This document shows, piece after piece, positions 13,690 through 42,445 of a stretch of DNA of 64,000 bases. Source of the stretch: a virus; IMG/VR virus record IMGVR_UViG_3300032770_000013, positions 1 through 64,000 of that record; one strand, given 5' to 3'. A program made the translations under genes and the position numbers. The notes under the pieces were generated by a model that ran no database searches, was not told the DNA's origin, and saw only the letters and a program-made list of their open reading frames with translations. Numbering within the stretch: the first letter of the stretch is position 1; every line of letters begins with the position of its first letter.

Positions 13690-13764
13690 TGGCAAGGGAC
13701 CGGAGATTTGAACTCCGACTGCATGGTTTTGGAGACCAGCCGACTGCCGTTATCTTAGTCCCCT
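13690..13764 (-). tRNA. tRNA-Trp(CCA)
   Basis: Cloverleaf, CCA end. Confidence 0.9.
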
Positions 13765-13765
13765 A

Positions 13766-13837
13766 TGGTACTGCGTGAGGGTTACGATCCCTCTTGAGCC
13801 GGATTCACAGTCCGTCCCCTGTCCAACAGCACGCAGC
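13766..13837 (-). tRNA. tRNA-His(GTG)
   Basis: Cloverleaf with short D-arm, A73, no G-1. Confidence 0.85.
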
Positions 13838-13842
13838 ATATT

Positions 13843-13916
13843 TGGTAGCGCGCCCCGGTGACGATCCGGGCCAACCATCCTTATGAGAGACAGCCGTTCA
13901 CCAGCGAACGCGCGCT
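13843..13916 (-). tRNA. tRNA-Met(CAT)
   Basis: Cloverleaf, atypical T-loop. Confidence 0.8.
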
Positions 13917-13923
13917 GTAAATT

Positions 13924-13999
13924 TGGCAGCCGAGGTAGGTCTCGAACCCACAACCTTCAGATTCAAAGTCTGCTGCGCTACCAATTACGCCACTCGGCC
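13924..13999 (-). tRNA. tRNA-Gln(TTG)
   Basis: Cloverleaf, CCA end. Confidence 0.92.
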
Positions 14000-14003
14000 G
14001 TAT

Positions 14004-14078
14004 TGGCACCCCGTGCGGGTGTCGATCCCGCTTCTCCGGTTTGAAGGACCGGGATTCTAGCCGGTAAACTAACGGGGC
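14004..14078 (-). tRNA. tRNA-Glu(TTC)
   Basis: Cloverleaf, C33. Confidence 0.88.
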
Positions 14079-14083
14079 AAAAA

Positions 14084-14157
14084 TGGTGCGGGCTCGGGGA
14101 CTCGAACCCCGAACCTCTGGTTGGAAGCCAGATACGTTACCTTTACGCTAAGCCCGC
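14084..14157 (-). tRNA. tRNA-Gly(TCC)
   Basis: Cloverleaf, CCA end. Confidence 0.92.
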
Positions 14158-14243
14158 GGCGGAAAGCTGAGAGCACGATTCTCACACCCGAAGGTGCCCT
14201 TCGTTTAGCAAACGAGGACGGGATCCCACCCGCTTAGCTTTCC
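14158..14243 (-). tRNA. tRNA-Ser(GCT)
   Basis: Long variable arm; ends GCC directly against tRNA-Gly. Confidence 0.85.
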
Positions 14244-14247
14244 GTAT

Positions 14248-14324
14248 TGGTGATCTCGGGAAGACTCGAACTCCCACACAATCGTTTAGGAAACGATGGC
14301 TCTGTCCAGTTGAGCTACGAGACC
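14248..14324 (-). tRNA. tRNA-Arg(CCT)
   Basis: Cloverleaf, CCA end. Confidence 0.92.
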
Positions 14325-14325
14325 G

Positions 14326-14396
14326 TGGTCTGGCGAGGACTCGAACCTCGATCCAACGCTTAGAAGGCGTCGCTTTATCCCGTTAAGTACCAGACC
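14326..14396 (-). tRNA. tRNA-Arg(TCT)
   Basis: Cloverleaf; full CCA not encoded after the discriminator. Confidence 0.85.
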
Positions 14397-14401
14397 GTAT
14401 T

Positions 14402-14475
14402 TGGAGGAACAGGGGAGAATCAAACTCCCATACGCGGGGTTGCAATCCGCTGCATCATCACTCTGCCACTGTCCC
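14402..14475 (-). tRNA. tRNA-Cys(GCA)
   Basis: Cloverleaf, U73. Confidence 0.88.
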
Positions 14476-14479
14476 GTAT

Positions 14480-14553
14480 TGGCACCCCTTGATGGAATCG
14501 AACCACCCTCTGCTGGTTCAGAGCCAGCCGTCCTGCCGATGAACGAAAGGGGT
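14480..14553 (-). tRNA. tRNA-Gln(CTG)
   Basis: Cloverleaf, CCA end. Confidence 0.9.
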
Positions 14554-14557
14554 AGAT

Positions 14558-14633
14558 TGGTCTGGGTGCGGTGTTCTGCCCACCGTCCTTCTGGTTCCAA
14601 GCCAGAGACTCTTCTAGCACGAGCTTCACCCAG
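14558..14633 (-). tRNA. tRNA-Pro(TGG)
   Basis: Cloverleaf, atypical D- and T-loops. Confidence 0.8.
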
Positions 14634-14639
14634 ATAAAA

Positions 14640-14718
14640 TGGAGCACACGGGGAGAGTCGAACTCCCATTTTCCAGTTACGGTTCCAATGATTCGTAGTC
14701 ATGGCCGATTACGTGTGC
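14640..14718 (-). tRNA. Atypical D-armless tRNA-like gene, anticodon ACG (Arg)
   Basis: 7-bp acceptor stem, T-arm, anticodon arm and CCA; no D-arm; about 20-nt extra region. Confidence 0.65.
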
Positions 14719-14719
14719 A

Positions 14720-14794
14720 TGGAGCCGCCAGCGGGTTCCGACCCCGCTTCATTTGGTTGAGAACCAAATATCCTAGCCACTAGACGATGGCGGC
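14720..14794 (-). tRNA. tRNA-Glu(CTC)
   Basis: Cloverleaf, CCA end. Confidence 0.88.
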
Positions 14795-14798
14795 AAGT

Positions 14799-14882
14799 TG
14801 GCTGGAGAGGGAGGGATCGAACCTCCGCCACGATGGGGACTCCGGTTAACAGCCGGGCACATTACCGCTCTGTCACTCTCCA
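14799..14882 (-). tRNA. tRNA-Asn(GTT)
   Basis: Cloverleaf with extended variable region. Confidence 0.88.
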
Positions 14883-14883
14883 A

Positions 14884-14955
14884 TGGTGGAGAAACGGAGA
14901 ATCGAACTCCGAACGGCAGCCTTGCAAGGGGTGCCTGTGTCCCAACACTTTCCCC
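14884..14955 (-). tRNA. tRNA-Ala(TGC)
   Basis: G3:U70 pair, short D-arm. Confidence 0.85.
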
Positions 14956-14959
14956 GAAA

Positions 14960-15035
14960 TGGTGCCCGGTCGTGGTTTCGAGCCACGCTCTCCTGCTCTT
15001 CAGGCAGGCGCTTTCACCAGATTAGCTTACCAGGC
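14960..15035 (-). tRNA. tRNA-Phe(GAA)
   Basis: Cloverleaf, CCA end. Confidence 0.9.
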
Positions 15036-15036
15036 T

Positions 15037-15110
15037 TGGTGCGGACACGGGGAGTCGAACCCCGGCCACTTCGTTGGCAACGAAGGAGACTGCCGTAATC
15101 CTTTGTCCGC
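15037..15110 (-). tRNA. tRNA-Gly(GCC)
   Basis: Cloverleaf, CCA end. Confidence 0.9.
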
Positions 15111-15111
15111 A

Positions 15112-15197
15112 TGGTAGGCGAGGCAGGACTCGAACCTGCGAAGACCGAAGCCGAGGGTTTTACAGACCCTTGTCGTTGCCGCTTGAACTACTCGCCC
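15112..15197 (-). tRNA. tRNA-Tyr(GTA)
   Basis: Long variable arm, CCA end. Confidence 0.92.
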
Positions 15198-15202
15198 TTA
15201 AT

Positions 15203-15276
15203 TGGTTGCGCAGGCCAGAGTCGCACTGGCGTCTTCAGGTTATGAGCCTGATATGGAACTCCTCCACTACCGCGCG
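15203..15276 (-). tRNA. tRNA-Met(CAT), initiator-like
   Basis: C1:A72 mismatch. Confidence 0.82.
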
Positions 15277-15282
15277 TCAGTT

Positions 15283-15371
15283 TGGCGGAAACGTGAGGTC
15301 TTGATCCCCAATGGCTTGCGCCATCCATCTCGCTTCGAACGAGCGCCGAGCACTTGCCCAGTTACGTTTCC
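15283..15371 (-). tRNA. tRNA-Ser(CGA)
   Basis: Long variable arm, G73. Confidence 0.85.
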
Positions 15372-15376
15372 GTATT

Positions 15377-15463
15377 TGGCGGAAGGCTGAGAACATGATT
15401 CTCATACGTTGCCGTACCAGCCGCTTTCCAAGCGGTGCCGGAGCCCTGTCCGGTTAACCTTCC
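15377..15463 (-). tRNA. tRNA-Ser(GGA)
   Basis: Long variable arm, G73. Confidence 0.87.
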
Positions 15464-15467
15464 GTAT

Positions 15468-15552
15468 TGGCGGATGGCTGAGGTGTCGATCCCCATACCT
15501 TGCGGTACTACGAGTATTCAAAGCTCGCTGCCGGGCCGCCGGCAAACCATCC
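15468..15552 (-). tRNA. tRNA-Ser(TGA)
   Basis: Long variable arm, G73. Confidence 0.8.
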
Positions 15553-15557
15553 GTATT

Positions 15558-15634
15558 TGGCGTTCCCTCGGTGATTCGAACACCGGGCCTCGGGCTTCGG
15601 AAACCCGCGCTCTTTCCTGCTGAGCTAAGGGAAC
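15558..15634 (-). tRNA. tRNA-Arg(CCG)
   Basis: Cloverleaf, CCA end. Confidence 0.92.
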
Positions 15635-15948
15635 AAAATTCCCGCCTTTTCAATAAAGACAATCTGCTTGTCGTCCTTCAAGATCGTCGGCCCGCGGCCG
15701 CACTTTCCGTCGAGCGCTTGAAACAGCGCCGTGATGAGGTTGTCCAAGTCCGGCCCGGTCGGGTCGATAAACAGCGCCGATAAGGAAATCTGGTGCTTCA
15801 GTTGCACAAGGCCAGCTTCCTGTGCTGCTTTCCACAATTCCTCTCGATAGCGCTTTAGCACCTCGCGATGAACGCGGCGGTGCGGTGCGCCATGCACATA
15901 GACCGTCAGCAGGCGCCGTGGATGATCGTACTGAACCTTGCAGCGCAT
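15625..15948 (-). CDS. rusA: RusA-like Holliday junction resolvase inside the tRNA array
   Basis: PDLDNL...DG...KDDKQI motif; GAGG RBS before ATG at 15948. Confidence 0.75.
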   Translation of the reverse strand: MRCKVQYDHPRRLLTVYVHGAPHRRVHREVLKRYREELWKAAQEAGLVQLKHQISLSALFIDPTGPDLDNLITALFQALDGKCGRGPTILKDDKQIVFIEKAGILFP

Positions 15949-15960
15949 AATCGCCTCGTT

Positions 15961-16035
15961 TGGTGCTTGCGCCGGGATTCGAACCCAGGTCAAACGGTTA
16001 TGAGCCGTCGGCACTAGCCACTGTGCTACACAAGC
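15961..16035 (-). tRNA. tRNA with CAT anticodon, probably Ile2 (lysidine type)
   Basis: Cloverleaf; third CAT tRNA in the array; Ile2-like arms. Confidence 0.8.
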
Positions 16036-16038
16036 AAT

Positions 16039-16115
16039 TGGTCGGGGTGGCAGGCTTCGATCCTGCGACCACTCGCTTCCGAAGCGAGGACTCTACCTGG
16101 CTGAGCTACACCCCG
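16039..16115 (-). tRNA. tRNA-Pro(CGG)
   Basis: Cloverleaf, CCA end. Confidence 0.92.
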
Positions 16116-16121
16116 TTGAAT

Positions 16122-16196
16122 TGGCGCGACTGGCGGGTGCTGACCCCGCGTCCTTTCCCTTGACAGGGGAGTGCTCCACCGTTGAGCTACAGCCGC
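16122..16196 (-). tRNA. tRNA-Asp(GTC)
   Basis: Cloverleaf, G73. Confidence 0.88.
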
Positions 16197-16200
16197 ATTA

Positions 16201-16276
16201 TGGTGTGCATGGGGCGAATCGAACGCCCACTGAACAGCTTCTCAAGCTGGTCCCTCTGCCGTTGGGGTACATGCAC
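16201..16276 (-). tRNA. tRNA-Leu(GAG)
   Basis: Cloverleaf, short variable loop. Confidence 0.88.
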
Positions 16277-16279
16277 GTT

Positions 16280-16355
16280 TGGTAGACCACCGGGGATTCG
16301 AACCCCGACCTCAGGGATTAAGAGTCCCGCGCTCTGCCGTTGATGCTAGTGGTCT
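16280..16355 (-). tRNA. tRNA-Lys(CTT)
   Basis: Cloverleaf, CCA end. Confidence 0.9.
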
Positions 16356-16360
16356 GTGAA

Positions 16361-16443
16361 TGGCGAACCCCGGTGGTTTCGAGCCACTTGGCGACGGGTT
16401 AAAAGTCCGGTCCCTCTCCATTCGGGTTTAAGCCTCGGGGTCC
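16361..16443 (-). tRNA. tRNA-Lys(TTT), atypical
   Basis: About 8 extra nt between acceptor stem and D-stem. Confidence 0.75.
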
Positions 16444-16490
16444 AAAGACCCCGCGTTTGAGTGGGTCACTCATTTTTCGAGTTCCTTATT

Positions 16491-16564
16491 TGGTGCGCCA
16501 GTGAGGAATCGAACCTCCGTCCCACGGTTATCGGCCGCGTTCTCTGCCATTGAGATACAAGCGC
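16491..16564 (-). tRNA. tRNA-Ile(GAT)
   Basis: Cloverleaf, C33. Confidence 0.88.
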
Positions 16565-16570
16565 ATTTGT

Positions 16571-16645
16571 TGGTGCGTCGTCGGTGAGTTGAACACCGGA
16601 CCTTTTGCGTGTCGAGCAAACGTTCCACCGCTGAACTAACGACGC
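16571..16645 (-). tRNA. tRNA-Val(GAC)
   Basis: Cloverleaf, C33. Confidence 0.88.
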
Positions 16646-16646
16646 A

Positions 16647-16721
16647 TGGTAGGCGCTGAGAATTACGATATCTCGACCTTCGCGGTGTAAACGCGACGCT
16701 CTTCCTCTGAGCTAAGCGCCT
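16647..16721 (-). tRNA. tRNA-Val(TAC)
   Basis: Cloverleaf, CCA end. Confidence 0.88.
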
Positions 16722-16727
16722 GTAAAT

Positions 16728-16804
16728 TGGTGCCCTAGGCAGGCCACGATCCTGCACTGAAAAGGGTTTAAGCCTTCTCCCTCTGCCAATTGGGGTACTA
16801 GGGC
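16728..16804 (-). tRNA. tRNA-Leu(TAA)
   Basis: Cloverleaf, short variable loop. Confidence 0.88.
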
Positions 16805-16805
16805 G

Positions 16806-16881
16806 TGGTGCACGTCTGGCGATTTGAACGCCGACTGAACGGGGTTTGAAGCCGCTGCCTCTGCCATTGGGCTAGACGTGC
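16806..16881 (-). tRNA. tRNA-Leu(CAA)
   Basis: Cloverleaf; register matches the other Leu tRNAs. Confidence 0.82.
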
Positions 16882-16885
16882 AAAT

Positions 16886-16962
16886 TGGTAGCCTCGGGGA
16901 GATTCGAACTCCCAACGCATGCCTTCTGAGGGCATCGTCTCTGCCAATTGGACTACGAGGCC
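16886..16962 (-). tRNA. tRNA-Leu(CAG)
   Basis: Cloverleaf, short variable loop. Confidence 0.9.
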
Positions 16963-16967
16963 GTAAA

Positions 16968-17041
16968 TGGTGCCCTCTACAGGTTACGATCCTGTGTCCG
17001 CTCCTTACCAAAGAGCAATTCTGCCATTGAACTAAGAGGGC
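16968..17041 (-). tRNA. tRNA-Thr(GGT)
   Basis: Cloverleaf, CCA end. Confidence 0.88.
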
Positions 17042-17046
17042 GCGAT

Positions 17047-17121
17047 TGGTGCCGGCTGGGTGAATCGAACACCCGCACTCTGCTTACAAGACAGAACCTC
17101 TGCCACTAAGGATAAGCCGGC
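17047..17121 (-). tRNA. tRNA-Thr(TGT)
   Basis: Cloverleaf, CCA end. Confidence 0.9.
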
Positions 17122-17122
17122 A

Positions 17123-17196
17123 TGGTGCTGGTTCCGTGAATCGAACACGGGCAACCTTCTTACGAGGGAGGTGGACTGCCACTATCCTAAGCCAGC
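17123..17196 (-). tRNA. tRNA-Thr(CGT)
   Basis: Cloverleaf, CCA end. Confidence 0.9.
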
Positions 17197-19048: not shown

Positions 19049-19139
19049 TCGCCTCGCCATACCAAACCGGGCCGATGCCAAAACATGCCTTACCTTTGCG
19101 AGCCGGGGCTTACCAAACTCCAGCATGCCGCACCATAAC
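19049..19139 (-). ncRNA. GGY-NN pentamer tract E (putative guide RNA)
   Basis: About 18 units, ending GGCGAGGCGATTTT. Confidence 0.75.
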
Positions 19140-19157
19140 TCAAAGCGATAAAAAAAT

Positions 19158-19254
19158 CCTCGCCGCGCCACACGCTGCCAGACCGTGCCGTGCCTCAGCA
19201 GACCCCGGCTCGCCCCGACAGGCCACGCAAGACCCGGCCGCAGCGTACCATGCC
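19158..19254 (-). ncRNA. GGY-NN pentamer tract D (putative guide RNA)
   Basis: 19 in-phase units, ending GGCGAGGA-T7. Confidence 0.8.
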
Positions 19255-19277
19255 TCCTTCAAAAATCGCCAAAATAT

Positions 19278-19410
19278 CCTCGCCTAATCCAAACCTCACC
19301 CGGCCTTGTCATACCTTGCCACAGCTCACTGAGCCAAGCCGGGCCGCACTTAACCTAACCTAGCCACGCCCCGCGTTGCCAAATCGCGCCCGGGATCGCC
19401 ATGCCCAACC
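19278..19410 (-). ncRNA. GGY-NN pentamer tract C (putative guide RNA)
   Basis: About 26 units, ending GGCGAGGATATTTT. Confidence 0.75.
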
Positions 19411-19421
19411 GCTCCGCAAAC

Positions 19422-20036
19422 CTACTTGAAGTTTACGATTCCAAAGCGGCCGAATGTCGGCCTAAAATCACCGATGCCGATCAAGCGACCAGCACTTTCA
19501 ATCGTTTCGCGCAAGGCATTGTGATCGACGTATTCCGGCAGCATCACGAGAAGATCAAACGTGACCTTCCAGCCGGCGCGCAAGGCAGGCCGCACGCGGT
19601 TGATACCTTGGCGCTGAATCATAACGCGCCGTTTATCCAAATAATCCCAATCCTTTACGCCGAGAGTGGCGAGCGGACTGGTGACGACAATGGCGGCCTT
19701 GAACAGGTCCATTGCGGACTTCCGCGGTGACCGCGGATCTTGCCGGAATTTCGCCGCGTTGATGATTGAGCCGCGAAGATACTCGCCGGGGACACAGATT
19801 TCACCGGCGTCGTTCCGATAGACGTAGGATTCTACGTCATCGGTCTTTTTGCCTTTGGAATTTTTAGCGGCGCGGGCTTTTTCATCGACCGCCTCGCTAT
19901 TCCATCTGTGCATTAAAAGATCGGCGGCCCCTTGAATCGTCACGCGAACCGGATATGGCTCGCTGTGAGAGATGACTTCGTTGCCACCGGAAGTCGGCTC
20001 AGAAATGTGGATAACTTTAGCTTTAGTTGCAGTCAT
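19422..20036 (-). CDS. Stand-alone RAMP/Cas7-like RNA-binding protein (Vipr-like)
   Basis: VTIQG..DLLMH, VPGEYLRGSI, RVRP and C-terminal G-loop GIGDFRPTFGRF; flanked by pentamer tracts. Confidence 0.75.
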   Translation of the reverse strand: MTATKAKVIHISEPTSGGNEVISHSEPYPVRVTIQGAADLLMHRWNSEAVDEKARAAKNSKGKKTDDVESYVYRNDAGEICVPGEYLRGSIINAAKFRQDPRSPRKSAMDLFKAAIVVTSPLATLGVKDWDYLDKRRVMIQRQGINRVRPALRAGWKVTFDLLVMLPEYVDHNALRETIESAGRLIGIGDFRPTFGRFGIVNFK

Positions 20037-20060
20037 TGTATTTGCTCCATTTTGGTTGAT

Positions 20061-20149
20061 GGAGACCTCACCGCACCGATGCTTGCCCTAGCTTGCCCAA
20101 CGCGACCTGACCAAGCCGCACCAAAGCGCGCCGTAAGCAAAAGGTCTCC
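20061..20149 (-). ncRNA. GGY-NN pentamer tract B closed by a GGAGACC/GGTCTCC stem
   Basis: About 14 units inside a 7-bp inverted repeat. Confidence 0.75.
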
Positions 20150-20269
20150 CCCGCGCTGAGCCTGCTAAGCCCGGAACGCGGTTCAGGGGTCACTTTTCAG
20201 CGACACTCAGACACGGGGAAGTTCGTGAGAGGTGCCGCGTTCTTCGCGTTAGCAGCCGCGAATGGAAAA

Positions 20270-20297
20270 ATAATACCGAAAATAAATCGAATGTCTA
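20270..20297 (-). promoter_or_regulatory. Sigma70-like promoter for tract B and the RAMP gene
   Basis: TAGACA-16nt-TATTAT. Confidence 0.5.
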
Positions 20298-20316
20298 GTG
20301 CCATTCACCAGCCCAA

Positions 20317-20332
20317 TGTTTCACGTGAAACA
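20317..20332. promoter_or_regulatory. parS-like ParB binding site
   Basis: Perfect palindrome TGTTTCACGTGAAACA. Confidence 0.7.
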
Positions 20333-20345
20333 TTTTGGTAATGTC

Positions 20346-20464
20346 GAACGGAGCCCGAAGGCCCCGTTCTCCCTTACCGAAACTCACCGCAGCCAACCGG
20401 ACCGGACAAGACCATGCCGAAGCCCACAACGGCAAACCATACCAAGGCCAGCACAAGCCCCACC
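20346..20464 (-). ncRNA. GGY-NN pentamer tract A with 3' hairpin
   Basis: About 18 units then GAACGGGGCC-TTCG-GGCTCCGTTC; TATAAT upstream at 20478-20483. Confidence 0.75.
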
Positions 20465-31109: not shown

Positions 31110-32087
31110 TCATTTTTTCGCTGGCGGTGGAAGTTTCCGCAAAGTCTTGATTTCCTTTTTGCGCGTTTCCATTATCCACTTATCCAAGATGGCGTGGCCT
31201 TTCTTCAGGCTCCCAAATTTTTTGATGATGAGTTCGGGAGGGATGATGACCTCGCCACCACTAACGTTCACGTCGACAAGACCGCGTTTGTCTGCGCCTC
31301 TCGCGCCGCCTTCGCTCGCGTAGTGCATGCCATTACCAGCACTGCCTTGCATCAACCGATGGCCCATGCCGAACATTCTGGAAACAATCGCCATACCCGC
31401 ATTCGTGTTGCCTTGACCCAGAGCAGAGACGTGGGCGGCCGGCAGGACGTAGCTCGACGAGGGAACCTTAATTGGATGGTTGTCCCGCCTGCCTGGCACA
31501 ACCGATAATACCGGACCAACATGGAGATTCCTAAACTCCTGCCGCTGATACGGCGGCGGCCGGAGATTAGCGCTCTTGGCGACGTCAAAGCCGCCCATTG
31601 CCCGATTAGCTACTCCGCCGGTATTGAGAAGCTTTTGAGCGATTGGATTGGCGGGATTGAGATTCTGCTGCACAACTCCGGGTAGGGTGGATTGCATCGT
31701 AGTTGAAGTAGCGGCCGCAGCCGGATTCGTCCCGGGCGCAGCCACTCCGGCAGGAGGCGGCGCCGTCATTGCCGTTGCCGCGGTCGAGCTCGGTGCTGCT
31801 GGATTGCTTGAGTTTGGCGTCGTGCTTGGTGTGCTGGTTGTCCCGGGAGAACCTACGCCTGCTCCCGCGCCTTGCTGAAGTGCGGCTATAATTTGTTGAA
31901 CCGCTCCACCATTGTCAAAGTTTGCTACGCCGCCAGTGGCGCGACCAGAACCGCGCCGCTGAGTTTCAAGCGCGATTGCGATCGCCTGTTTGCGAGATTG
32001 AACGTGGGGAGACTTTCCAATCTCACCCATCAAGACGTGCATATTACGCTTGAGGGCACCGGGGCTGGATGAATGTTCAAGCGGCAT
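31110..32087 (-). CDS. Hypothetical virion-associated protein with xAxGG motifs
   Basis: 325 aa ORF in the structural module. Confidence 0.6.
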   Translation of the reverse strand: MPLEHSSSPGALKRNMHVLMGEIGKSPHVQSRKQAIAIALETQRRGSGRATGGVANFDNGGAVQQIIAALQQGAGAGVGSPGTTSTPSTTPNSSNPAAPSSTAATAMTAPPPAGVAAPGTNPAAAATSTTMQSTLPGVVQQNLNPANPIAQKLLNTGGVANRAMGGFDVAKSANLRPPPYQRQEFRNLHVGPVLSVVPGRRDNHPIKVPSSSYVLPAAHVSALGQGNTNAGMAIVSRMFGMGHRLMQGSAGNGMHYASEGGARGADKRGLVDVNVSGGEVIIPPELIIKKFGSLKKGHAILDKWIMETRKKEIKTLRKLPPPAKK

Positions 32088-32982
32088 GACTGTTGCTCAC
32101 AGGGAATATTGCTTCTTTTACCATGACACCGTGCGCAACCTTCGCCCCAAATGCCTTGTGGCAAGAGTAACATAAAGTCCGTCCATTTTCGAGAGAGTAT
32201 CTAAGTTCTGGGAAAAGCGAGAATGGCTTAATATGATCGGCGTTCAAAACGCCGCCTCTGATGCCGCAAATCGTGCATTTGTAATCGTCGCGCTCGAACA
32301 CAGCTACGCGCCAACGCTCAGCTTGCCTTGATTTTCTAGCTGCTTCGTTTTTCGTCGTTACACCGCCGCGCCAAAACGGATGATCTGGACCTCTTAATAT
32401 TTTTTTATTTGGTGGTTGAGGTATTTTCCCACCGAAAGCAGCCATTACTTTACGGCCAGTTTCACGACGTGCTGCAATAATTTCCGGCCGAGTTTGAACT
32501 TCTTTGATAGCGCAGGATCGACACCGTATGCCATGATTATCTATCCTACGCAGCCAGCTACACCCACAATCAATACACGTTGCCTGAACCATTATGCGGC
32601 GTTCATTTTTCTTATGGCGCTCTCCTCCTCGCCAATTAGGATGCTCCTTTCCTCTTAACACTTTTCTTCGGCGATAAGATTCCTTAACCTCAGGTCGCGA
32701 GCTAACCTCTTTCTGAGCGCACGACAAGCATCTACCTTTCCACTTTCGGATATTGCTTACATGCATCATCCAGGTATGACCGCAATCGGAACAAACGACT
32801 TGCCGTTTCTTATCTCTATTTGCCTCTCTGTTGCAGACACGAGAACACTCACAGCAGAGAGAACCGCTAGTCCATCGCAACCCCGAATGACCATAAGGAC
32901 ACGGACGACCTTGATATTGCTTCAAGCCAGCTGCCAAGGCAGCATTCCGCGCTTCAATTGATTCCCGTCTGACCGACATCAC
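32077..32982 (-). CDS. HNH endonuclease with multiple zinc fingers
   Basis: VFERDDYKCTICG..ADHIKPF..NGRTLCYSCH. Confidence 0.85.
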   Translation of the reverse strand: MMSVRRESIEARNAALAAGLKQYQGRPCPYGHSGLRWTSGSLCCECSRVCNREANRDKKRQVVCSDCGHTWMMHVSNIRKWKGRCLSCAQKEVSSRPEVKESYRRRKVLRGKEHPNWRGGERHKKNERRIMVQATCIDCGCSWLRRIDNHGIRCRSCAIKEVQTRPEIIAARRETGRKVMAAFGGKIPQPPNKKILRGPDHPFWRGGVTTKNEAARKSRQAERWRVAVFERDDYKCTICGIRGGVLNADHIKPFSLFPELRYSLENGRTLCYSCHKAFGAKVAHGVMVKEAIFPVSNSHAA

Positions 32983-35575: not shown

Positions 35576-36079
35576 TTAATTTGGCCTCGCAAACTCGCCA
35601 TGAGGCCGATTAGCAGCATCCACATACGCATGATGAGCCGCAATCTCGGTATCGAAAAGTCCCAAATGTATCCGTTTATTCTCGTGTTGTATGTTTGCGA
35701 GCCATTTCTGCGATGCTTTGTGCCAACTCACGCCCTTAAATTTCGAACTCTTCGGTCTAGACCATTGTTTCCGGTTATGCTGATTTTGCGATTTTGTCGC
35801 GGCACGAAGGTTATCAATTCGATTATCGTCTCTAACACCATTTTTGTGATCGACTTCAAATTCAGGCCATTCACCAGTCTCAAAAAGCCAAGCTATCCGA
35901 TGTGCCTGATAGACTTTGCCTCGCAGTTCAATCTCGCGATATCCTTGACCGTTTTTGTGACCTGCTTCAGCGCCGACCGAACATCTGCGTGCAGGAGCGG
36001 CCCTCCAATAAAAAAGGCCAGTCTCCGGTTCGTACCGAAGCCAAGACATGAGTTCGTTGCGAGTTAGACTTTCAGCCAT
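35576..36079 (-). CDS. HNH-AP2 homing endonuclease
   Basis: AHRIAW..VDHKNGVRDDNRIDNLR; FKGVSW..HLGLF. Confidence 0.88.
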   Translation of the reverse strand: MAESLTRNELMSWLRYEPETGLFYWRAAPARRCSVGAEAGHKNGQGYREIELRGKVYQAHRIAWLFETGEWPEFEVDHKNGVRDDNRIDNLRAATKSQNQHNRKQWSRPKSSKFKGVSWHKASQKWLANIQHENKRIHLGLFDTEIAAHHAYVDAANRPHGEFARPN

Positions 36080-37070: not shown

Positions 37071-37781
37071 CTAAGCGCGCGGCGGCGTGGCAATCGGGTT
37101 TGGTTGTTTTGGCGTCCAACCTTGCGACTGATACCGTTTGCGCATTTCCTCAGTGTTTGCAGATGCCCACAAATCCTGATAGTGTTTTGACCAACTCGAC
37201 GAACCTTGCGGATCGTCTGTAAGAGCGCCGAAGTCTTTCAAATAGCCATAACCAAATATGAGAGATTCTGCTAGGAAAAGGTCCGGCAGATACAAACTCA
37301 AATAAGTTTGCGGGTTAGTAGCACTCAATGGCGTTGGTCTAATTGTCCCGATAACCTCCATCGTGTATGCCGCATCTGGAGGTGGCCCTACAATGATTGT
37401 CTGGTCCGTTATCATCGCGTAGTATTGCGGGACCGATGGCGTTGTTGTTGCCGTCTCGTTGCCCCACATCCAATCGATGAACTCGCGCGAGGTCGGCACA
37501 AGCTGAACGCGATTGCTGGAGTTGAGCGGATAAAAGACATTCATGCTCTCAGTAACAACAAACCGTCCTTGGTCCTGAGGTAGCGTGAAGCTGCGACTAT
37601 TAGGTGTAAGAGTCGCGCTGGAATCTACAATTACAGAATTTAAAATATCTAATTCTCTGAGGATTCTTTGCTCGGAATCGTCGATCACATTCGGCAAAAA
37701 TGTTTGAAAATTCGGGTCATTCTGAGGAATGACCAGCATGTTGGCCAGCGACTGAACGTATGTCGTATAGGTAAGGCTCAT
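37071..37781 (-). CDS. Head-tail adaptor protein
   Basis: EQRILRELD, PQYYA..VGPPPD and PDLFL motifs. Confidence 0.7.
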   Translation of the reverse strand: MSLTYTTYVQSLANMLVIPQNDPNFQTFLPNVIDDSEQRILRELDILNSVIVDSSATLTPNSRSFTLPQDQGRFVVTESMNVFYPLNSSNRVQLVPTSREFIDWMWGNETATTTPSVPQYYAMITDQTIIVGPPPDAAYTMEVIGTIRPTPLSATNPQTYLSLYLPDLFLAESLIFGYGYLKDFGALTDDPQGSSSWSKHYQDLWASANTEEMRKRYQSQGWTPKQPNPIATPPRA

Positions 37782-37800
37782 ATAACTTCCCGATAAATAG

Positions 37801-37915
37801 GAAAGGCCGCCACGTTAGCGACGACCTTTCCACCCCTATCAGACCGGAACTCACCAGAACTCACCCGAGCTAACCATAACCGACCTGATCTCACCGCATC
37901 TCGTCTCACCATAAC
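37801..37915 (-). ncRNA. GNY-NN pentamer tract F with 3' hairpin (putative guide RNA)
   Basis: 17 in-phase units then GAAAGGTCGTC/GGCGGCCTTTC stem. Confidence 0.75.
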
Positions 37916-38103
37916 AAATGTTGACGAGAAAGAAATTTGGCGAGGATGCGCCGGACGGCCTCGGAACGGGTAGGCTTGTCCTCTTGAGTTTGCCTCCATT
38001 GATCGATCGCACCGCGTAATTTCACAGGCAATCTTATCGCGGTCACAGGGTCTTGACCTGTCTGCGGCCTTCCTCTTTTTCGTACTACAGGTATTGACCC
38101 CAT
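37906..38103 (-). CDS. Ribbon-helix-helix transcriptional regulator
   Basis: KRGRP.TG.DP..AIRLP..IDQW..PTRSEAVRRI. Confidence 0.7.
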   Translation of the reverse strand: MGSIPVVRKRGRPQTGQDPVTAIRLPVKLRGAIDQWRQTQEDKPTRSEAVRRILAKFLSRQHLLW

Positions 38104-38149
38104 AGCCTATTTGTAATACACTTATGCCGCTGAAACAAGACGGCAGAAG

Positions 38150-38581
38150 ATGACCTACGAAGAATACATCCGTTCGCCGCAATGGCACGCAAAACGCGAA
38201 CTTGCCCTTGCAAGGGACGGATTTCGTTGCCGAGCATGCGATGCAACCGAAAATCTTGAGGTTCACCATCGGCGCTATCCCAAAATTCTTGGCACGGAAA
38301 AAGTAGACGATTTGACAACGCTCTGCGGCGGCCAAAACGGCTGCCACATGGCCATCACTAATCTCCTTCGATCTCGCAGACATGCCTTGGCGACCATCGA
38401 GGCTTCCACAACAGTCCGAATCAGCATTGGACGCATAGAGGTATCTCATGAACTACAAGAACCTGAAATTTCGGATACGCAGCGTTGCACCCCTGCTCAT
38501 GCACAACGGGCAACTGGCGGACCCACTGAACCACCATGTGAAAGAAATGCGCAAGATTACGAGCAAGCGGATCAAAACTGA
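38150..38581 (+). CDS. HNH endonuclease
   Basis: YEEYIRSPQW..RDGFRCRAC..LEVHHRRY..LTTLC..CH. Confidence 0.8.
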   Translation: MTYEEYIRSPQWHAKRELALARDGFRCRACDATENLEVHHRRYPKILGTEKVDDLTTLCGGQNGCHMAITNLLRSRRHALATIEASTTVRISIGRIEVSHELQEPEISDTQRCTPAHAQRATGGPTEPPCERNAQDYEQADQN

Positions 38582-39014
38582 TTCCGACTTGGAACAACTT
38601 GCCAAGCTGGAATGGTTCGGCTCGCTTTACATCAGCAACGGCGTCCCATGCTTGCCTGGAGAACTCGTAGAGGCGACGTTTGTCAACGCCGCCAAAAAGA
38701 CCAAACGAGGCCAACAAGCTAAAGCCGGCATAATTTCGGACGGCTTTTGGCCAGTTGAATACGATGGGCCAAAAGACTTGGAAGAAATGTGGAAAGATGG
38801 ACGGTTTCGGCTCACTACCGCCGTTCGCGTATAGCGCAACAAGGTTATGAGGACACGACCGATCTTTCGACAGTGGGAATCCACTATCCAAATCGACTAC
38901 CTGCCGGATCAATTGGGCGTCAACGAGATCACAGATATCGTCGCCATCATGGGACGATTGATTGGCTTCGGCGATTGGCGTCCGCGTTTTGGACGCTTTG
39001 AAATCGTCTCTTGA
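38448..39014 (+). pseudogene. Second RAMP/Cas7-like gene interrupted by an in-frame TAG (38832-38834)
   Basis: PLLMHN..LPGE; frame continues RNKVMRTRPIF..GFGDWRPRFGRF to TGA at 39014. Confidence 0.75.
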
Positions 39015-39045
39015 CCGCATCGCCCCACGTCACCCTTAGCCCCGC

Positions 39046-39612
39046 TTATTCCTCGATCTGCATGGGAACCATGCGGCCGACCTCCTTAACCACGCGAGGC
39101 CGCACGCGGTCATCCTCCCGCGTCATCTCGCCCTTCGGCGTTTTGCCGAGGCGCTGTTCGGCTTCCCGGATTTGGCGGTTGGCGAGTTGCTCATTCTCGG
39201 TCCGGGCCTCATCGGTCAACTCTTTCGGCCGCTCCATGAGGATCAGGCCATCCTTGATGATGTGCGGCTTGTCGTAGCCCGGAGGCAACGGCACCCAATC
39301 CGGATGCTGCCGCGGGTCGACGGGCAACCAGCCCTGCTCTTCCATGCGGGAGAGATAGAACGGATCATCGGCGCCGACGTTGCTGAAGCGCTTCCATTCC
39401 ACCGATACGTCGGACGGAATCTTATCGAGATTGACCGCATCGAACGGATTGACCTGGACCGAGGCGCTACGCTGCCGGGTGCGTTTCCGCGGCGCATCGT
39501 GCTCGGCTACATGCTCGGTTTCCCGGGCATCGGGCGGCGGTGCTGCCGCATGTTCCGGTGTGCGATCGGCATTGCGACGCTGACGCCGCTGGGCAACTGT
39601 CTCGGGTTCCAT
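39046..39612 (-). CDS. Conserved head-module protein
   Basis: GW.PV..HP and GLILMERP motifs; follows the scaffold gene. Confidence 0.65.
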   Translation of the reverse strand: MEPETVAQRRQRRNADRTPEHAAAPPPDARETEHVAEHDAPRKRTRQRSASVQVNPFDAVNLDKIPSDVSVEWKRFSNVGADDPFYLSRMEEQGWLPVDPRQHPDWVPLPPGYDKPHIIKDGLILMERPKELTDEARTENEQLANRQIREAEQRLGKTPKGEMTREDDRVRPRVVKEVGRMVPMQIEE

Positions 39613-40836: not shown

Positions 40837-41550
40837 GTGGCTAATTCCCGTATATGCTCGGTTGAAGGTTGCGGCAAGCCGCACGAGGCACACGGCTATT
40901 GCCCGATGCACTACACCCGTTGGCGCAAGCACGGCGATCCACTTTACGAGGTGCCGCTTAAAAACTACGGGCCAATTTGTTCGGTTGAAGGATGTGAAAA
41001 GCCGTCCCGCGAACGAGGTTGGTGCAGCATGCACTATGCCAGATGGCTTACGCATGGCGACGTAAACTACGCAGGCAAGCCGCGTCCTAAAACCAAGTTG
41101 CAGAAGTTCATCGAAGAAGCCGTAGCATACAAAGGCGACGATTGCCTTTACTGGCCGTGGCCGACAAAGAGCCGACGCGGCTCGATCTTTGTTGACGGCC
41201 GACTGGTCAAGGCTCCGCGCTATGTGTGCACTTTGGTTCATGGCGAGCCACCAACGCCAGAATACGAAGCCGCCCATTCATGCGGCCATGGCTGGGAAGT
41301 ATGTCTCAATCCAAACCACTTGAGATGGGCAACACCGATTGAAAATGCGGCCGACAGATACCTCCATGGAACAGATGCAAGAGGGGAGAACAATCCCGGT
41401 GCCGTGTTAACAGAAACCAATGTGCGCGAAATCCGAAAGTTGCTTCGGCGTGGCATGAAACAAAAAGACATCGGAAAGATATTTGGTGTTTCCAGAGGTG
41501 CCATCTTGTCGATCAATCTGCGCAAGTCATGGGGGTGGCTAGAAGATTAG
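40837..41550 (+). CDS. HNH endonuclease with zinc-finger repeats and HTH
   Basis: Two CSVEGC..C.MHY.RW repeats; AAHSCG..CLNPNHLRWAT..EN..D. Confidence 0.85.
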   Translation: MANSRICSVEGCGKPHEAHGYCPMHYTRWRKHGDPLYEVPLKNYGPICSVEGCEKPSRERGWCSMHYARWLTHGDVNYAGKPRPKTKLQKFIEEAVAYKGDDCLYWPWPTKSRRGSIFVDGRLVKAPRYVCTLVHGEPPTPEYEAAHSCGHGWEVCLNPNHLRWATPIENAADRYLHGTDARGENNPGAVLTETNVREIRKLLRRGMKQKDIGKIFGVSRGAILSINLRKSWGWLED

Positions 41551-41946
41551 GTCGGGAGCGGGAATCCTCATTGCGATGTCTTGATCTCTGACTATGCGGC
41601 AAAGTTGCCCGTTCACCACGATTTTTCTGCCGTCTACCGTATGAAGCGCAACCCAGTCTCCCGGCGAAACGGAATCGGGTCCGAAATCATATTGATCGTC
41701 GGATTTGAAAGCCGAATGGCCCAGCATCAGGACGCAGGCCGCCTTGCCTTGGAACTCGTCTTCTTTGATCGTGACGTCGGCCAAATGAATCCCAGATTTG
41801 GTAACTTTCGGCCGCTCATAGATGCCGACAAGGACGCGATTCCCAAACAATTCAAAGCCGGGCAAAACGCCTAGCTTCTTCATTCCGATCTTGTCGTAAA
41901 TGACCTTTCGCGGATCGTCCTTCGCCTGCATTTCCATATAAGGCAT
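41539..41946 (-). CDS. groES: GroES-like co-chaperonin
   Basis: GNRVLV..TKSGIHL..VLMLG..PGDWV. Confidence 0.75.
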   Translation of the reverse strand: MPYMEMQAKDDPRKVIYDKIGMKKLGVLPGFELFGNRVLVGIYERPKVTKSGIHLADVTIKEDEFQGKAACVLMLGHSAFKSDDQYDFGPDSVSPGDWVALHTVDGRKIVVNGQLCRIVRDQDIAMRIPAPDLIF

Positions 41947-41959
41947 TGTGGCGTGTTCC

Positions 41960-42445
41960 TTATTTCTTCGGTCCAAAGACCAATGTGAAAACGGCTGGCG
42001 GACCTTCGTATGCTTTCGTCTTGATGCCAGTAGCCGACGTCAGAGCAGCACAGAGAAATGCGCCGTCGCAGGATAATCCTGTACCAATCGGAATGTCGCG
42101 GTAAAGGAAACAATGGCTGAGCAGGTGCGCTTTCCACCCCGCTTCATTTAGCGCATCGACAATGTCCTCAGCCAATGGTCGGCAATCGGCATTGTCGCAT
42201 TCAACCTTCACTTCCTTGCTTGCCGTGACGCCTTTAAGCGTCGCCACAAACTTAGCATATTGGTTGTCGTTCAGTTCGTACCAATGCCATTTCCTGTAGC
42301 GTTCAAGTTGGCGGTTATTGGATTGGATGGTCGTCATGTTCGACGGAAGATAATAAGCGCCGTTCTTGTCGCTGATCCAGTCATCGGCAAACGCCGAGCT
42401 AACGAGCACGGTGACGAGTAATGCTACGCCGAGAAACGCCCTCAT
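41960..42445 (-). CDS. Hypothetical protein with signal peptide
   Basis: MRAFLGVALLVTVLVSSAFA. Confidence 0.55.
   Translation of the reverse strand: MRAFLGVALLVTVLVSSAFADDWISDKNGAYYLPSNMTTIQSNNRQLERYRKWHWYELNDNQYAKFVATLKGVTASKEVKVECDNADCRPLAEDIVDALNEAGWKAHLLSHCFLYRDIPIGTGLSCDGAFLCAALTSATGIKTKAYEGPPAVFTLVFGPKK

What the first reader, a model, noticed from the sequence alone, without database searches (positions are those of the whole stretch)
37801..39040. Second cassette: RHH regulator and tract F divergent from HNH plus an amber-interrupted RAMP gene
Seen: a roughly 1.25-kb insert between two structural genes holds an RHH gene followed by tract F on the minus strand. On the plus strand an HNH ORF overlaps a second, divergent RAMP-like gene whose frame continues past a TAG (38832) to GFGDWRPRFGRF. 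No CTA-anticodon tRNA is present in the array. Inference: this could be an RNA-guided homing cassette in which the HNH supplies cleavage, now decaying or complemented in trans by the 19.4-kb protein.
Basis: partly seen in the sequence, partly recalled or inferred. Interest (0 to 1): 0.8.

Follow-up and report, generated by a model that had tools for sequence, protein, structure and literature searches.

The report
HNH-armed VIPR cassette, effector amber-broken
A 1.26-kb insert in this phage's virion genes is a second copy of the recently described, CRISPR-like VIPR system with an HNH nuclease partner; its single guide RNA reads rival phages' version of the neighbouring gene, but one stop codon breaks its RNA-binding protein.

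Summary
Observation confirmed. The 1,264-bp slot between virion gene 37071-37781 and gene 39046-39612 holds four parts. They are an RHH gene (minus strand), a 15-unit G-N-Y-N-N pentamer tract with a hairpin terminator (minus), and an HNH gene overlapping a RAMP gene (plus). One TAG breaks the RAMP gene at codon 129.

Read through, the RAMP gene is a full-length homolog of the solved SUSP1 Vipr protein (E 8e-43) and folds like Csm3/Cas7. This is therefore a VIPR system (bioRxiv 2026), not a new kind.

The same HNH sits upstream of, and overlaps, vipr in 49 of 80 related loci, so it is the conserved nuclease partner.

Under the published 1-nt-skip rule, guide F reads codons 33-47 of the adjacent virion gene. 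It matches 23-29 of 30 positions in 14 relatives, and 18 IMG/VR phages match its first 13 units exactly. The carrier's own copy matches only 21/30 and uses rare AGA and TTA codons there.

TAG replaces the family's CAG. No suppressor tRNA exists, and TAG is an ordinary stop here. The effector is therefore freshly inactivated, misassembled, or replaced in trans by Vipr1.

RNA-guided homing or exclusion is plausible but unproven. This scan noted similar VIPR-HNH cassettes in other genomes.

The parts
37841..37915 (-). vrRNA F guide region: 15 pentamers G-N-Y-N-N (GGT alternating with GNT). The first units overlap the RHH stop codon.
   Evidence: one of only six such tracts in the 96-kb genome. 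(the NN code matches natural targets).
37790..37840 (-). vrRNA F 3' handle (AG-GGGTG) plus a 14-bp hairpin and T-run, i.e. an intrinsic terminator. It ends 9 nt before the virion gene's start codon.
   Evidence: The same GGG(T/A)GA-plus-hairpin tail follows the vrRNAs of vipr2-clade relatives L017, L020, L021 and L026.
37906..38103 (-). RHH-type small regulator (65 aa), divergent from the HNH-vipr operon.
   Evidence: Pfam RHH_1 match is weak (E 0.1). Homologs sit in the same divergent position in L017, L018/L019, L041 and L042. Other loci carry unrelated RHH or HTH genes there.
38094..38122 (+). Promoter-like site (TTGACC-17-TACACT) in front of HNH-vipr2.
   Evidence: This is a consensus match only.
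38150..38581 (+). HNH nuclease gene (143 aa), the conserved Vap-like partner. Residues 1-80 are folded and the C-terminal ~60 aa are predicted disordered. The last 134 nt overlap vipr2.
   Evidence: PHROG HNH families at 2e-8. 13 of 21 homologs hit Pfam HNH. C27, C30, H39, H40, L55, C59 and H66 are invariant. Model and fold matches to Cas5-HNH and phage GVE2 HNH. Linkage seen in 49/80 loci.
38448..38831 (+). vipr2, codons 1-128 (RRM core and helical part, including the G1-contact histidine H19).
38832..38834 (+). In-frame TAG at codon 129. The closest homologs have Gln (CAG) here. In the model it lies in the turn between the two long beta-strands 121-128 and 131-140.
38835..39017 (+). vipr2, codons 130-188 plus TGA. 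This part holds the thumb arginine (R137) and the G-loop D176-W177-R178. Every family-invariant residue is retained.
   Evidence: Residue roles come from bioRxiv 10.64898/2026.04.26.720927.
37641..37685 (-). Self copy of the guide-F target, codons 33-47 of the virion gene. It matches 21/30 NN positions and carries AGA x2 and TTA x2.
37071..37781 (-). Flanking virion structural gene (phrog_2941), whose alleles in other phages are the predicted target.
39046..39612 (-). Right flanking gene (unknown function), convergent with vipr2 and only 28 bp from its stop. No downstream vrRNA is present.
19422..20036 (-). vipr1, the intact paralog (35% identical) and possible trans-acting partner for tract F.

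Best explanation
The insert is a second, nuclease-type VIPR cassette. It has a divergent RHH regulator, an HNH-vipr two-gene operon with overlapping genes, and one guide RNA (tract F) that ends in the clade's own handle and terminator hairpin.

By homology with the solved SUSP1 system, Vipr2 protomers would polymerise along the RNA, one per pentamer. They would hide G-N-Y and present each NN pair to double-stranded DNA, skipping every third target base. Read that way, the guide spells codons 33-47 (I-D-D-A-E-Q-R-I-Y-R-E-L-D-x-L) of the virion gene next to the cassette, as that gene is written in related phages.

The carrier's own gene is protected by nine changes at coding positions. Four of them are Arg CGN-to-AGA and Leu CTN-to-TTA switches that keep the amino acid.

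The conserved HNH partner most likely cuts the bound rival DNA. A co-infecting relative would then be destroyed, or repaired from the carrier's genome (exclusion or homing).

In this record a single CAG-to-TAG change at codon 129 removes the thumb and G-loop of Vipr2. The cassette's own effector is therefore most likely freshly inactivated, and the guide is either idle or served by the intact Vipr1.

Shown here: homology, architecture, linkage, guide-target matches, self-mismatch and the stop codon. Inferred: RNA expression, loading, cleavage, homing and trans use.
For: Vipr identity:
- The profile of P0001 and its homologs hits PDB 36pp_D 'SUSP1 Vipr protein' at E 8e-43 over the full length.
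- It matches phrog_4652 end to end at 3e-47.
- The AF2 model has pLDDT 92, and its top PDB folds are all Csm3/Cmr4/Cas7-type RAMPs.
- The GGY-contact residues reported for SUSP1 (H17, R138, D177, W178, R179) align with H19, R137, D176, W177, R178.

Partner genes:
- HNH is linked in 49/80 loci with the same overlap.
- Its Zn-finger and His residues are invariant.
- A divergent RHH or HTH gene recurs in the same position.

Guide RNA:
- Tract F is one of only six pentamer tracts in the genome.
- Its tail is the one used by vipr2-clade relatives, and it ends in a terminator.

Target:
- The best 1-nt-skip hit in the whole genome is codon 33 of the adjacent gene, at 21/30.
- All 14 orthologous loci have their best hit at the same codon, at 23-29/30, against a background maximum of 21 in 80 unrelated loci.
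- 18 IMG/VR contigs match the first 26 specified bases exactly. All 18 matches are in orthologs at +96, and none of those contigs has the cassette.

Self-avoidance:
- Both TTA codons and two of the three AGA codons of the gene lie inside the 15-codon site. Genome-wide these codons make up 7% of Leu and 11% of Arg codons.
- There is a local GC dip to 0.35, against 0.56 in relatives.

Amber:
- Q/CAG is found in the closest homologs, and 0/80 homologs have an internal stop.
- There is no suppressor tRNA.
- TAG ends 12 of 65 long genes.
Against: - No expression, binding or cleavage data exist for this cassette or for any HNH-type VIPR that I could read.
- The published work demonstrates silencing only, and only for type II.
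- Tract F lies on the opposite strand and on the RHH side. In relatives the vrRNAs lie just downstream of vipr on the same strand.
- Only about half of tract F's units are canonical GGY.
- No sigma-70-like promoter was found for tract F.
- With the TAG, four of the five GGY-contact residues are not translated.
- Guides of the nuclease-free vipr1 locus also have their best self-like matches in their own neighbours. Neighbour targeting alone therefore does not imply homing.
- The recoded patch is local rather than continuous with the cassette edge.
- In relatives the slot is filled by other genes rather than being empty.
Confidence: 0.72

Rival explanations
1. The TAG is an assembly or sequencing error, or a minority allele, in this metagenome-derived record. 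The real phage has CAG and the cassette is fully active.
For: TAG is one transition from the CAG of the closest homologs. All 13 family-invariant residues downstream of the stop are intact. The HNH, RHH, guide and terminator are all intact.
Against: The record reads TAG, and reads cannot be inspected here. A very recent real mutation would give the same picture.
Confidence: 0.25
2. Dead effector, live guide. Vipr2 is lost, and tract F is loaded by the intact Vipr1 (19422-20036). It then acts as a silencer of rivals without the HNH.
For: Vipr1 keeps the aligned His, Arg-Pro and Asp-Phe-Arg contact residues. Tract A beside vipr1 has the same GGG(A/T)G-plus-hairpin tail design as tract F. Phages that lost vipr but kept vrRNAs are documented (bioRxiv 10.64898/2026.10.15.759431).
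Against: The two proteins are only 35% identical. Cross-loading between clades has not been tested. Silencing a rival's virion gene could be complemented in trans during co-infection (inference).
Confidence: 0.3
3. The stop is leaky or bypassed. Either near-cognate tRNA-Gln inserts Gln at UAG, or translation restarts at the ATG at 38847. Either route would give a low, perhaps regulated, level of functional protein.
For: The family residue at this position is Gln, and the phage encodes tRNA-Gln with CUG and UUG anticodons. An ATG lies 12 nt after the stop. The stop lies in a turn between two strands.
Against: None of 80 homologs has a stop there, so it is not a family feature. There is no suppressor tRNA. 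TAG terminates 12 of 65 long genes. Restarting at the ATG would delete five thumb residues.
Confidence: 0.1
4. The cassette only excludes or silences rivals and never copies itself. Neighbour targeting would then reflect competition between alleles of the same genome region, not homing.
For: Guides of the nuclease-free vipr1 locus also point at their neighbours. The recoded patch is local. Relatives carry other genes in the slot.
Against: A nuclease partner is conserved. The target lies about 140 bp from the cassette edge, as with free-standing phage homing endonucleases (general knowledge).
Confidence: 0.35
5. The HNH is an unrelated free-standing homing endonuclease that landed next to vipr2 by chance and cuts independently of the RNA.
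For: Three other free-standing HNH genes sit in the same virion module.
Against: The same HNH family lies directly upstream of vipr, in the same orientation and with the same overlap, in 49 of 80 homologous loci from unrelated contigs.
Confidence: 0.03

Closest known systems
VIPR systems with a predicted nuclease accessory gene (types III-V; an HNH-domain Vap is shown in fig. S21 of bioRxiv 10.64898/2026.04.26.720920)
   Same: Vipr RAMP protein, pentamer-repeat guide, 1-nt-skip targets in other phages with the skip at wobble positions, no self hit at 80% or more, a small locus, an HNH partner, and sometimes a single vrRNA.
   Different: The paper describes the nuclease types as enriched in host defence islands. 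This one sits inside a phage virion module and aims at the flanking gene's alleles. Its guide is on the opposite strand, behind an RHH gene, and its effector carries a stop codon. I could not assign the type number because the figures and tables are not held.
Type II VIPR of Escherichia phage SUSP1 (PDB 36pp; Felixounavirus, LittleE and LESphi2 relatives)
   Same: Clear sequence homology (E 8e-43; 34-42% identity to phage homologs), the same contact residues, and the same guide logic.
   Different: Type II has vipr followed by a downstream DNA-binding vap and no HNH. Its tail is a pseudoknot, whereas here it is a plain hairpin terminator.
Free-standing phage homing endonucleases (T4 Seg/Mob-type HNH and GIY-YIG genes; general knowledge)
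   Same: A nuclease gene inserted between conserved genes and absent from relatives. The recognition site lies in the neighbouring gene of cassette-less genomes, and the carrier's own site is resistant through sequence differences.
   Different: Here recognition would be supplied by an RNA-protein filament rather than by the nuclease's own DNA-binding domain. Cleavage and co-conversion have not been shown.
Type I-E HNH Cascade (Cas5-HNH; PDB 8yb6, 8zp7)
   Same: These are the best structural matches of the HNH domain (rmsd 1.7-2.1 A, about 30% identity over ~66 columns). There an HNH is also joined to a RAMP-based RNA-guided complex.
   Different: In Cascade the HNH is fused to Cas5, whereas here it is a separate protein. 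This cassette has no CRISPR array and no contiguous guide.
Orphan (solo) vrRNAs in VIPR-null phages (bioRxiv 10.64898/2026.10.15.759431)
   Same: A guide is kept while its own effector gene is lost, and the self-match is lower than the match to rivals.
   Different: In those phages vipr-vap1 is deleted. Here the gene is present with one nonsense codon, and an intact paralog exists in the same genome.

Membership tests
VIPR system | Vipr protein: a RAMP fold (RRM core, thumb, G-loop) homologous to characterised Vipr proteins | tested here: met
   PDB 36pp_D SUSP1 Vipr at E 8e-43, full length. Model pLDDT 92. Top folds are Csm3/Cmr4. This holds for the read-through translation.
VIPR system | Intact effector ORF that includes the GGY-contact residues (SUSP1 H17, R138, D177, W178, R179) | tested here: not met
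   The residues are all conserved in sequence (H19, R137, D176, W177, R178). However, four of the five lie after the in-frame TAG at codon 129.
VIPR system | vrRNA: 9 or more pentamer repeats (GGY/NN or a related consensus) with a structured 3' tail, next to vipr | tested here: met
   15 units of G-N-Y-N-N (7 canonical GGY), then a handle and a hairpin terminator. The tail is shared with clade relatives. The strand and position are atypical.
VIPR system | Natural targets at 80% or more NN match under the 1-nt-skip rule, with the skip at codon wobble positions | tested here: met
   26-29/30 in 9 of 14 orthologous loci, in frame. 18 exact 26-base matches in IMG/VR, all at codon 33 of orthologs. 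Other skip lengths give only background scores in the genome, apart from the trivial 3-nt-skip hit on the tract itself.
VIPR system | No self-target at 80% or more NN match | tested here: met
   The best self hit is 21/30, i.e. 70%.
VIPR system | Conserved accessory (vap) gene in the locus | tested here: met
   HNH lies upstream and overlapping in 49/80 loci. RHH or HTH regulators recur.
VIPR system | vrRNA is expressed and co-purifies with Vipr; target binding or repression follows | not testable with these tools
   Needs small-RNA sequencing, pull-down and reporter assays.
Homing endonuclease element | Nuclease cassette between conserved genes, absent from related genomes | tested here: met
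   None of the 14 + 18 related loci has RHH, HNH or vipr. L012, L015 and L117 share both flanks. The slot there holds other small genes and is not empty.
Homing endonuclease element | Recognition site in the cassette-less allele close to the insertion point, with the carrier's site resistant | tested here: met
   The guide target lies about 140 bp from the tract, matching 29/30 in relatives against 21/30 in self. Recognition is inferred from the guide code and has not been measured.
Homing endonuclease element | Site-specific cleavage and copying of the element into the cut allele | not testable with these tools
   Needs cleavage mapping and mixed-infection or marker-transfer assays.
CRISPR-Cas | Array of identical repeats separated by unique spacers | tested here: not met
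   Only pentamer tracts are present. No repeat-spacer array was found in or beside the cassette.
Stop-codon reassignment or suppression (TAG read as Gln) | A suppressor tRNA, or TAG avoided as a stop and frequent inside genes | tested here: not met
   No CTA-anticodon tRNA in the genome. TAG ends 12 of 65 long ORFs. 0 of 80 homologs carry a stop.

The most novel reading that the evidence does not exclude
HNH-armed VIPR cassettes may be RNA-guided homing (gene-drive-like) elements of phages. The guide next to the cassette edge reads the cassette-less allele of the flanking gene, the HNH cuts it, and repair from the carrier copies the cassette together with the recoded, immune patch. This phage would show the late stage of that life cycle, with the element fixed and its effector starting to decay.
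Probability: 0.35. Interest if true: 0.85.

Novelty: new member of a known kind. Interest (0 to 1): 0.62.

Why it matters
VIPR was described only in 2026, and the experiments I could read concern nuclease-free type II systems. This cassette is a compact natural example of the nuclease-associated kind inside a phage. It comes with one guide, a clearly identified target (18 exact natural sites in IMG/VR) and a clearly identified self-immunity solution.

The published argument is that skipping the wobble base defeats synonymous escape. Here the carrier escapes its own guide through the two amino acids whose codon families differ at positions 1-2 (Arg CGN/AGR, Leu CTN/TTR), plus a few conservative replacements.

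The layout makes three ideas testable with a 1.3-kb construct:
- RNA-guided cleavage by a Vipr-HNH pair.
- RNA-guided homing between phages.
- Cross-use of a guide by a second Vipr in the same genome.

Tried and rejected
- A fixed-spacing GGTGAG motif search found nothing because the period assumed was wrong. The periodicity scan replaced it.
- The search for related loci with the single protein found no relative. The alignment query did.
- The paper's supplementary tables and figures are not held, so the VIPR type number could not be assigned.
- No sigma-70-like promoter was found for tract F. Co-transcription with the RHH gene is assumed.
- No direct or inverted repeats mark the cassette ends.
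- Genome-wide TAG recoding and a phage suppressor tRNA were rejected.
- None of the vipr1 guides A-E targets the vipr2 cassette; the best score is 16/24, which is background. Conflict between the two systems does not explain the amber.
- Cross-scanning 160 guides against the other fetched loci (L003-L096) at 85% or more gave only one case, L068 on L065/L071.
It was redone from coordinates.

Full report
**What is there.** The window is the first 64 kb of a 95,988-bp IMG/VR phage record that is rated complete. Protein relatives point to hosts among the Rhizobiales (Hyphomicrobiaceae, Microvirga, Methylobacterium). Almost all genes in this part of the window run on the minus strand. Between virion gene 37071-37781 (phrog_2941) and gene 39046-39612 lies a 1,264-bp slot.
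- an RHH ORF at 37906-38103 (-);
- a pentamer tract directly after the RHH stop codon;
- an HNH ORF at 38150-38581 (+);
- a RAMP-like ORF from 38448 (+), overlapping the HNH by 134 nt. It meets TAG at 38832-38834 and continues in frame for 59 codons to a glycine-rich C-terminus.

**The RAMP-like gene is a Vipr.**
- Read through the TAG, the 188-aa product (P0001) matches phrog_4652 end to end (3e-47).
- It has about 1,000 full-length homologs, the closest 62-71% identical and also 188 aa.
- A profile of these homologs hits the chain named 'SUSP1 Vipr protein' in PDB entry 36pp at E 8e-43 over the whole length.
- The AlphaFold model is confident (pLDDT 92). Its best PDB folds are all CRISPR backbone RAMPs such as Csm3 and Cmr4.

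They describe Vipr plus vrRNAs built of GGY/NN pentamers, a target code that skips one base, seven types, and accessory vap genes that include HNH nucleases. The residues that hold G1, G2 and Y3 in SUSP1 (H17, R138, D177, W178, R179) align with H19, R137, D176, W177 and R178 here. So 'RAMP-like' is correct, and the family is a known one.

**The amber.**
- Position 129 is Gln in at least 90% of the aligned sequences.
- The two closest IMG/VR loci, L017 and L018, have CAG there. More distant relatives have Gly.
- None of the 80 homologous loci has an internal stop.
- The genome has 31 tRNAs and no CTA anticodon.
- TAG ends 12 of 65 long ORFs.

Recoding and a programmed family feature are therefore excluded. 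The change is a single C-to-T transition. It lies in the turn between the strands at 121-128 and 131-140. Termination there removes the thumb arginine and the whole G-loop, so the 128-aa product should not bind the RNA in the known way. Everything downstream is still perfect: all family-invariant residues are kept. The HNH and RHH genes also keep their invariant residues. That fits a very recent mutation, a minority allele, or an assembly error. The reads would decide.

**The HNH belongs to the system.** In 49 of the 80 best IMG/VR loci, a homolog of this HNH lies directly upstream of vipr on the same strand. The two genes typically overlap by 130-150 nt, and L017 has the same 143-aa length and 134-nt overlap. 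The overlap in the window is therefore the native architecture, not decay.
- The CxxC...HH...DDL...C...CH pattern is invariant or nearly so.
- 13 of 21 homologs reach Pfam HNH.
- Residues 1-80 fold confidently. Their best structural matches are the HNH domain of Cas5-HNH in type I-E HNH Cascade and a phage HNH endonuclease.
- The last ~60 residues are predicted disordered.

A divergent small regulator also recurs. Homologs of this RHH are found in L017, L018/L019, L041 and L042. Other loci carry unrelated RHH or HTH genes in the same place.

**Tract F is a guide RNA gene.**
- A scan of both strands of the whole genome for pentamer periodicity returns only six tracts: five around vipr1, plus tract F.
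- Tract F has 15 in-phase units of G-N-Y-N-N, followed by AG-GGGTG, a 14-bp hairpin and a T-run.
- In vipr2-clade relatives the vrRNAs end in the same GGG(T/A)GA-plus-hairpin tail. This ties tract F to this clade.

Two things are unusual:
- In relatives the guides sit just downstream of vipr on its own strand. Here the 28 bp after vipr2 hold nothing, and the only guide lies beyond the RHH gene on the other strand. L042 does have a guide beyond its RHH, but on the vipr strand.
- Only about half of the units are canonical GGY. The paper mentions frequent internal degeneracy.

**What the guide reads.**
- With the published 1-nt skip, the single best site in the 96-kb genome is codon 33 of the adjacent virion gene, in frame, at 21/30.
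- In each of 14 related loci, the best site within the locus is the orthologous codon, at 23-29/30. Nine of them reach 26/30 or more.
- The best score in 80 unrelated loci never exceeds 21.
- An exact search of IMG/VR with the first 13 units (26 specified bases) returns 18 contigs. All 18 matches are at +96 of an ortholog, in phages only 45-69% identical in that protein. None of these contigs has the cassette.
- L117 shares four genes of synteny and carries a single unrelated 169-aa ORF in the slot.

The guide therefore targets a conserved peptide motif of this virion protein family.

The carrier's own site differs at nine coding positions. Both TTA codons of the gene, and two of its three AGA codons, lie within these 15 codons. 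Genome-wide these codons make up 7% of Leu codons and 11% of Arg codons. Local GC falls to 0.35, against 0.56 in relatives. This looks like selected self-immunity that exploits the only synonymous changes the skip code cannot ignore.

**Is it homing?** Among 160 guides in the 80 loci, 15 have a significantly good near-match in their own locus.
- Eleven of those 15 lie within 500 bp of the guide, mostly in frame in the flanking ORF. Among the non-significant guides the figure is 33 of 145 (Fisher p 1.4e-4).
- One guide of L068 matches its own flank at 73% and the flank of relatives L065 and L071 at 88%.

Aiming at the neighbour's alleles is therefore a habit of these cassettes. Other follow-ups in this scan reached the same view on other genomes. 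The preprints I read do not mention it.

A nuclease partner, a target about 140 bp from the cassette edge and an immune carrier allele together form the classic layout of phage homing endonucleases. Silencing a rival's virion gene would be complemented in trans during co-infection, which favours cutting (inference).

Three results temper this reading:
- The nuclease-free vipr1 locus also aims at its neighbours.
- The recoded patch is local rather than continuous with the cassette edge.
- The slot in relatives is occupied by other genes.

I put homing proper at about one in three, and cleavage-based exclusion or homing together at a little over one half.

**Trans use.** Vipr1 is intact and keeps the contact residues. 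Tract A beside vipr1 has the same tail design. Phages that lost vipr but kept their guides are documented. Use of tract F by Vipr1 is therefore plausible but untested. None of the vipr1 guides targets the vipr2 cassette.

**Verdict.** The object is a new member of a known, very recently described kind (VIPR with an HNH partner). Its interest lies in the clean guide-target-immunity triad and in the testable idea of RNA-guided homing.

Noticed in passing
window 32077-32982(-), 35576-36079(-), 40837-41550(+): Three free-standing HNH endonuclease genes (PHROG HNH families, down to 1e-66) are scattered through the same virion module. The region is a hotspot for selfish nuclease genes.
   Followed up: partly
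window 19075-20458(-) and neighbours: Guides A, B and E of the first VIPR locus have their best self-like matches in their own neighbours (20993 in the upstream polyvalent gene, 19891 in vipr1 itself, 18862 in the downstream gene). All three matches are on the strand opposite to the genes.
   Followed up: partly
L017-L096 (80 IMG/VR loci): Eleven of the 15 guides with a significant near-self match hit an ORF within 500 bp of the guide, usually in frame. Neighbour-allele targeting looks like a general property of this Vipr clade.
   Followed up: partly
L068:3932-3996 versus L065:~4081 and L071:~1890: The third guide of L068 matches the gene flanking the array in two related phages at 23/26, but matches its own copy at only 19/26. 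Those two relatives show only two guide tracts in the tract scan.
   Followed up: no
window 38402-38581 (HNH residues 85-143): The C-terminal ~60 residues of the HNH protein are predicted disordered, yet they keep a conserved AQR..G motif. They are largely encoded in the overlap with the vipr N-terminus. They may be a docking tail for the Vipr filament, or the conservation may be imposed by the other reading frame.
   Followed up: no
L042:3217-3321(+): A relative has an extra vrRNA with its own TATAAT box on the far side of its RHH gene, convergent with it. This is the nearest parallel to the odd placement of tract F.
   Followed up: partly
L098 (Mycobacterium phage LittleE, gp33-gp34): A vipr-plus-downstream-gene pair lies inverted between the tape-measure gene and tail genes. 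It is another VIPR insert on the opposite strand inside a structural module. It is annotated only as hypothetical proteins.
   Followed up: no
window 13690-17196(-): An array of 31 tRNA genes includes two tRNA-Gln genes (CUG, UUG) and three CAU-anticodon tRNAs called Met.
   Followed up: no
window 41539-41976(-): This ORF has a GroES-like co-chaperonin match (phrog_3188, 4e-8) and sits between the capsid-side genes.
   Followed up: no
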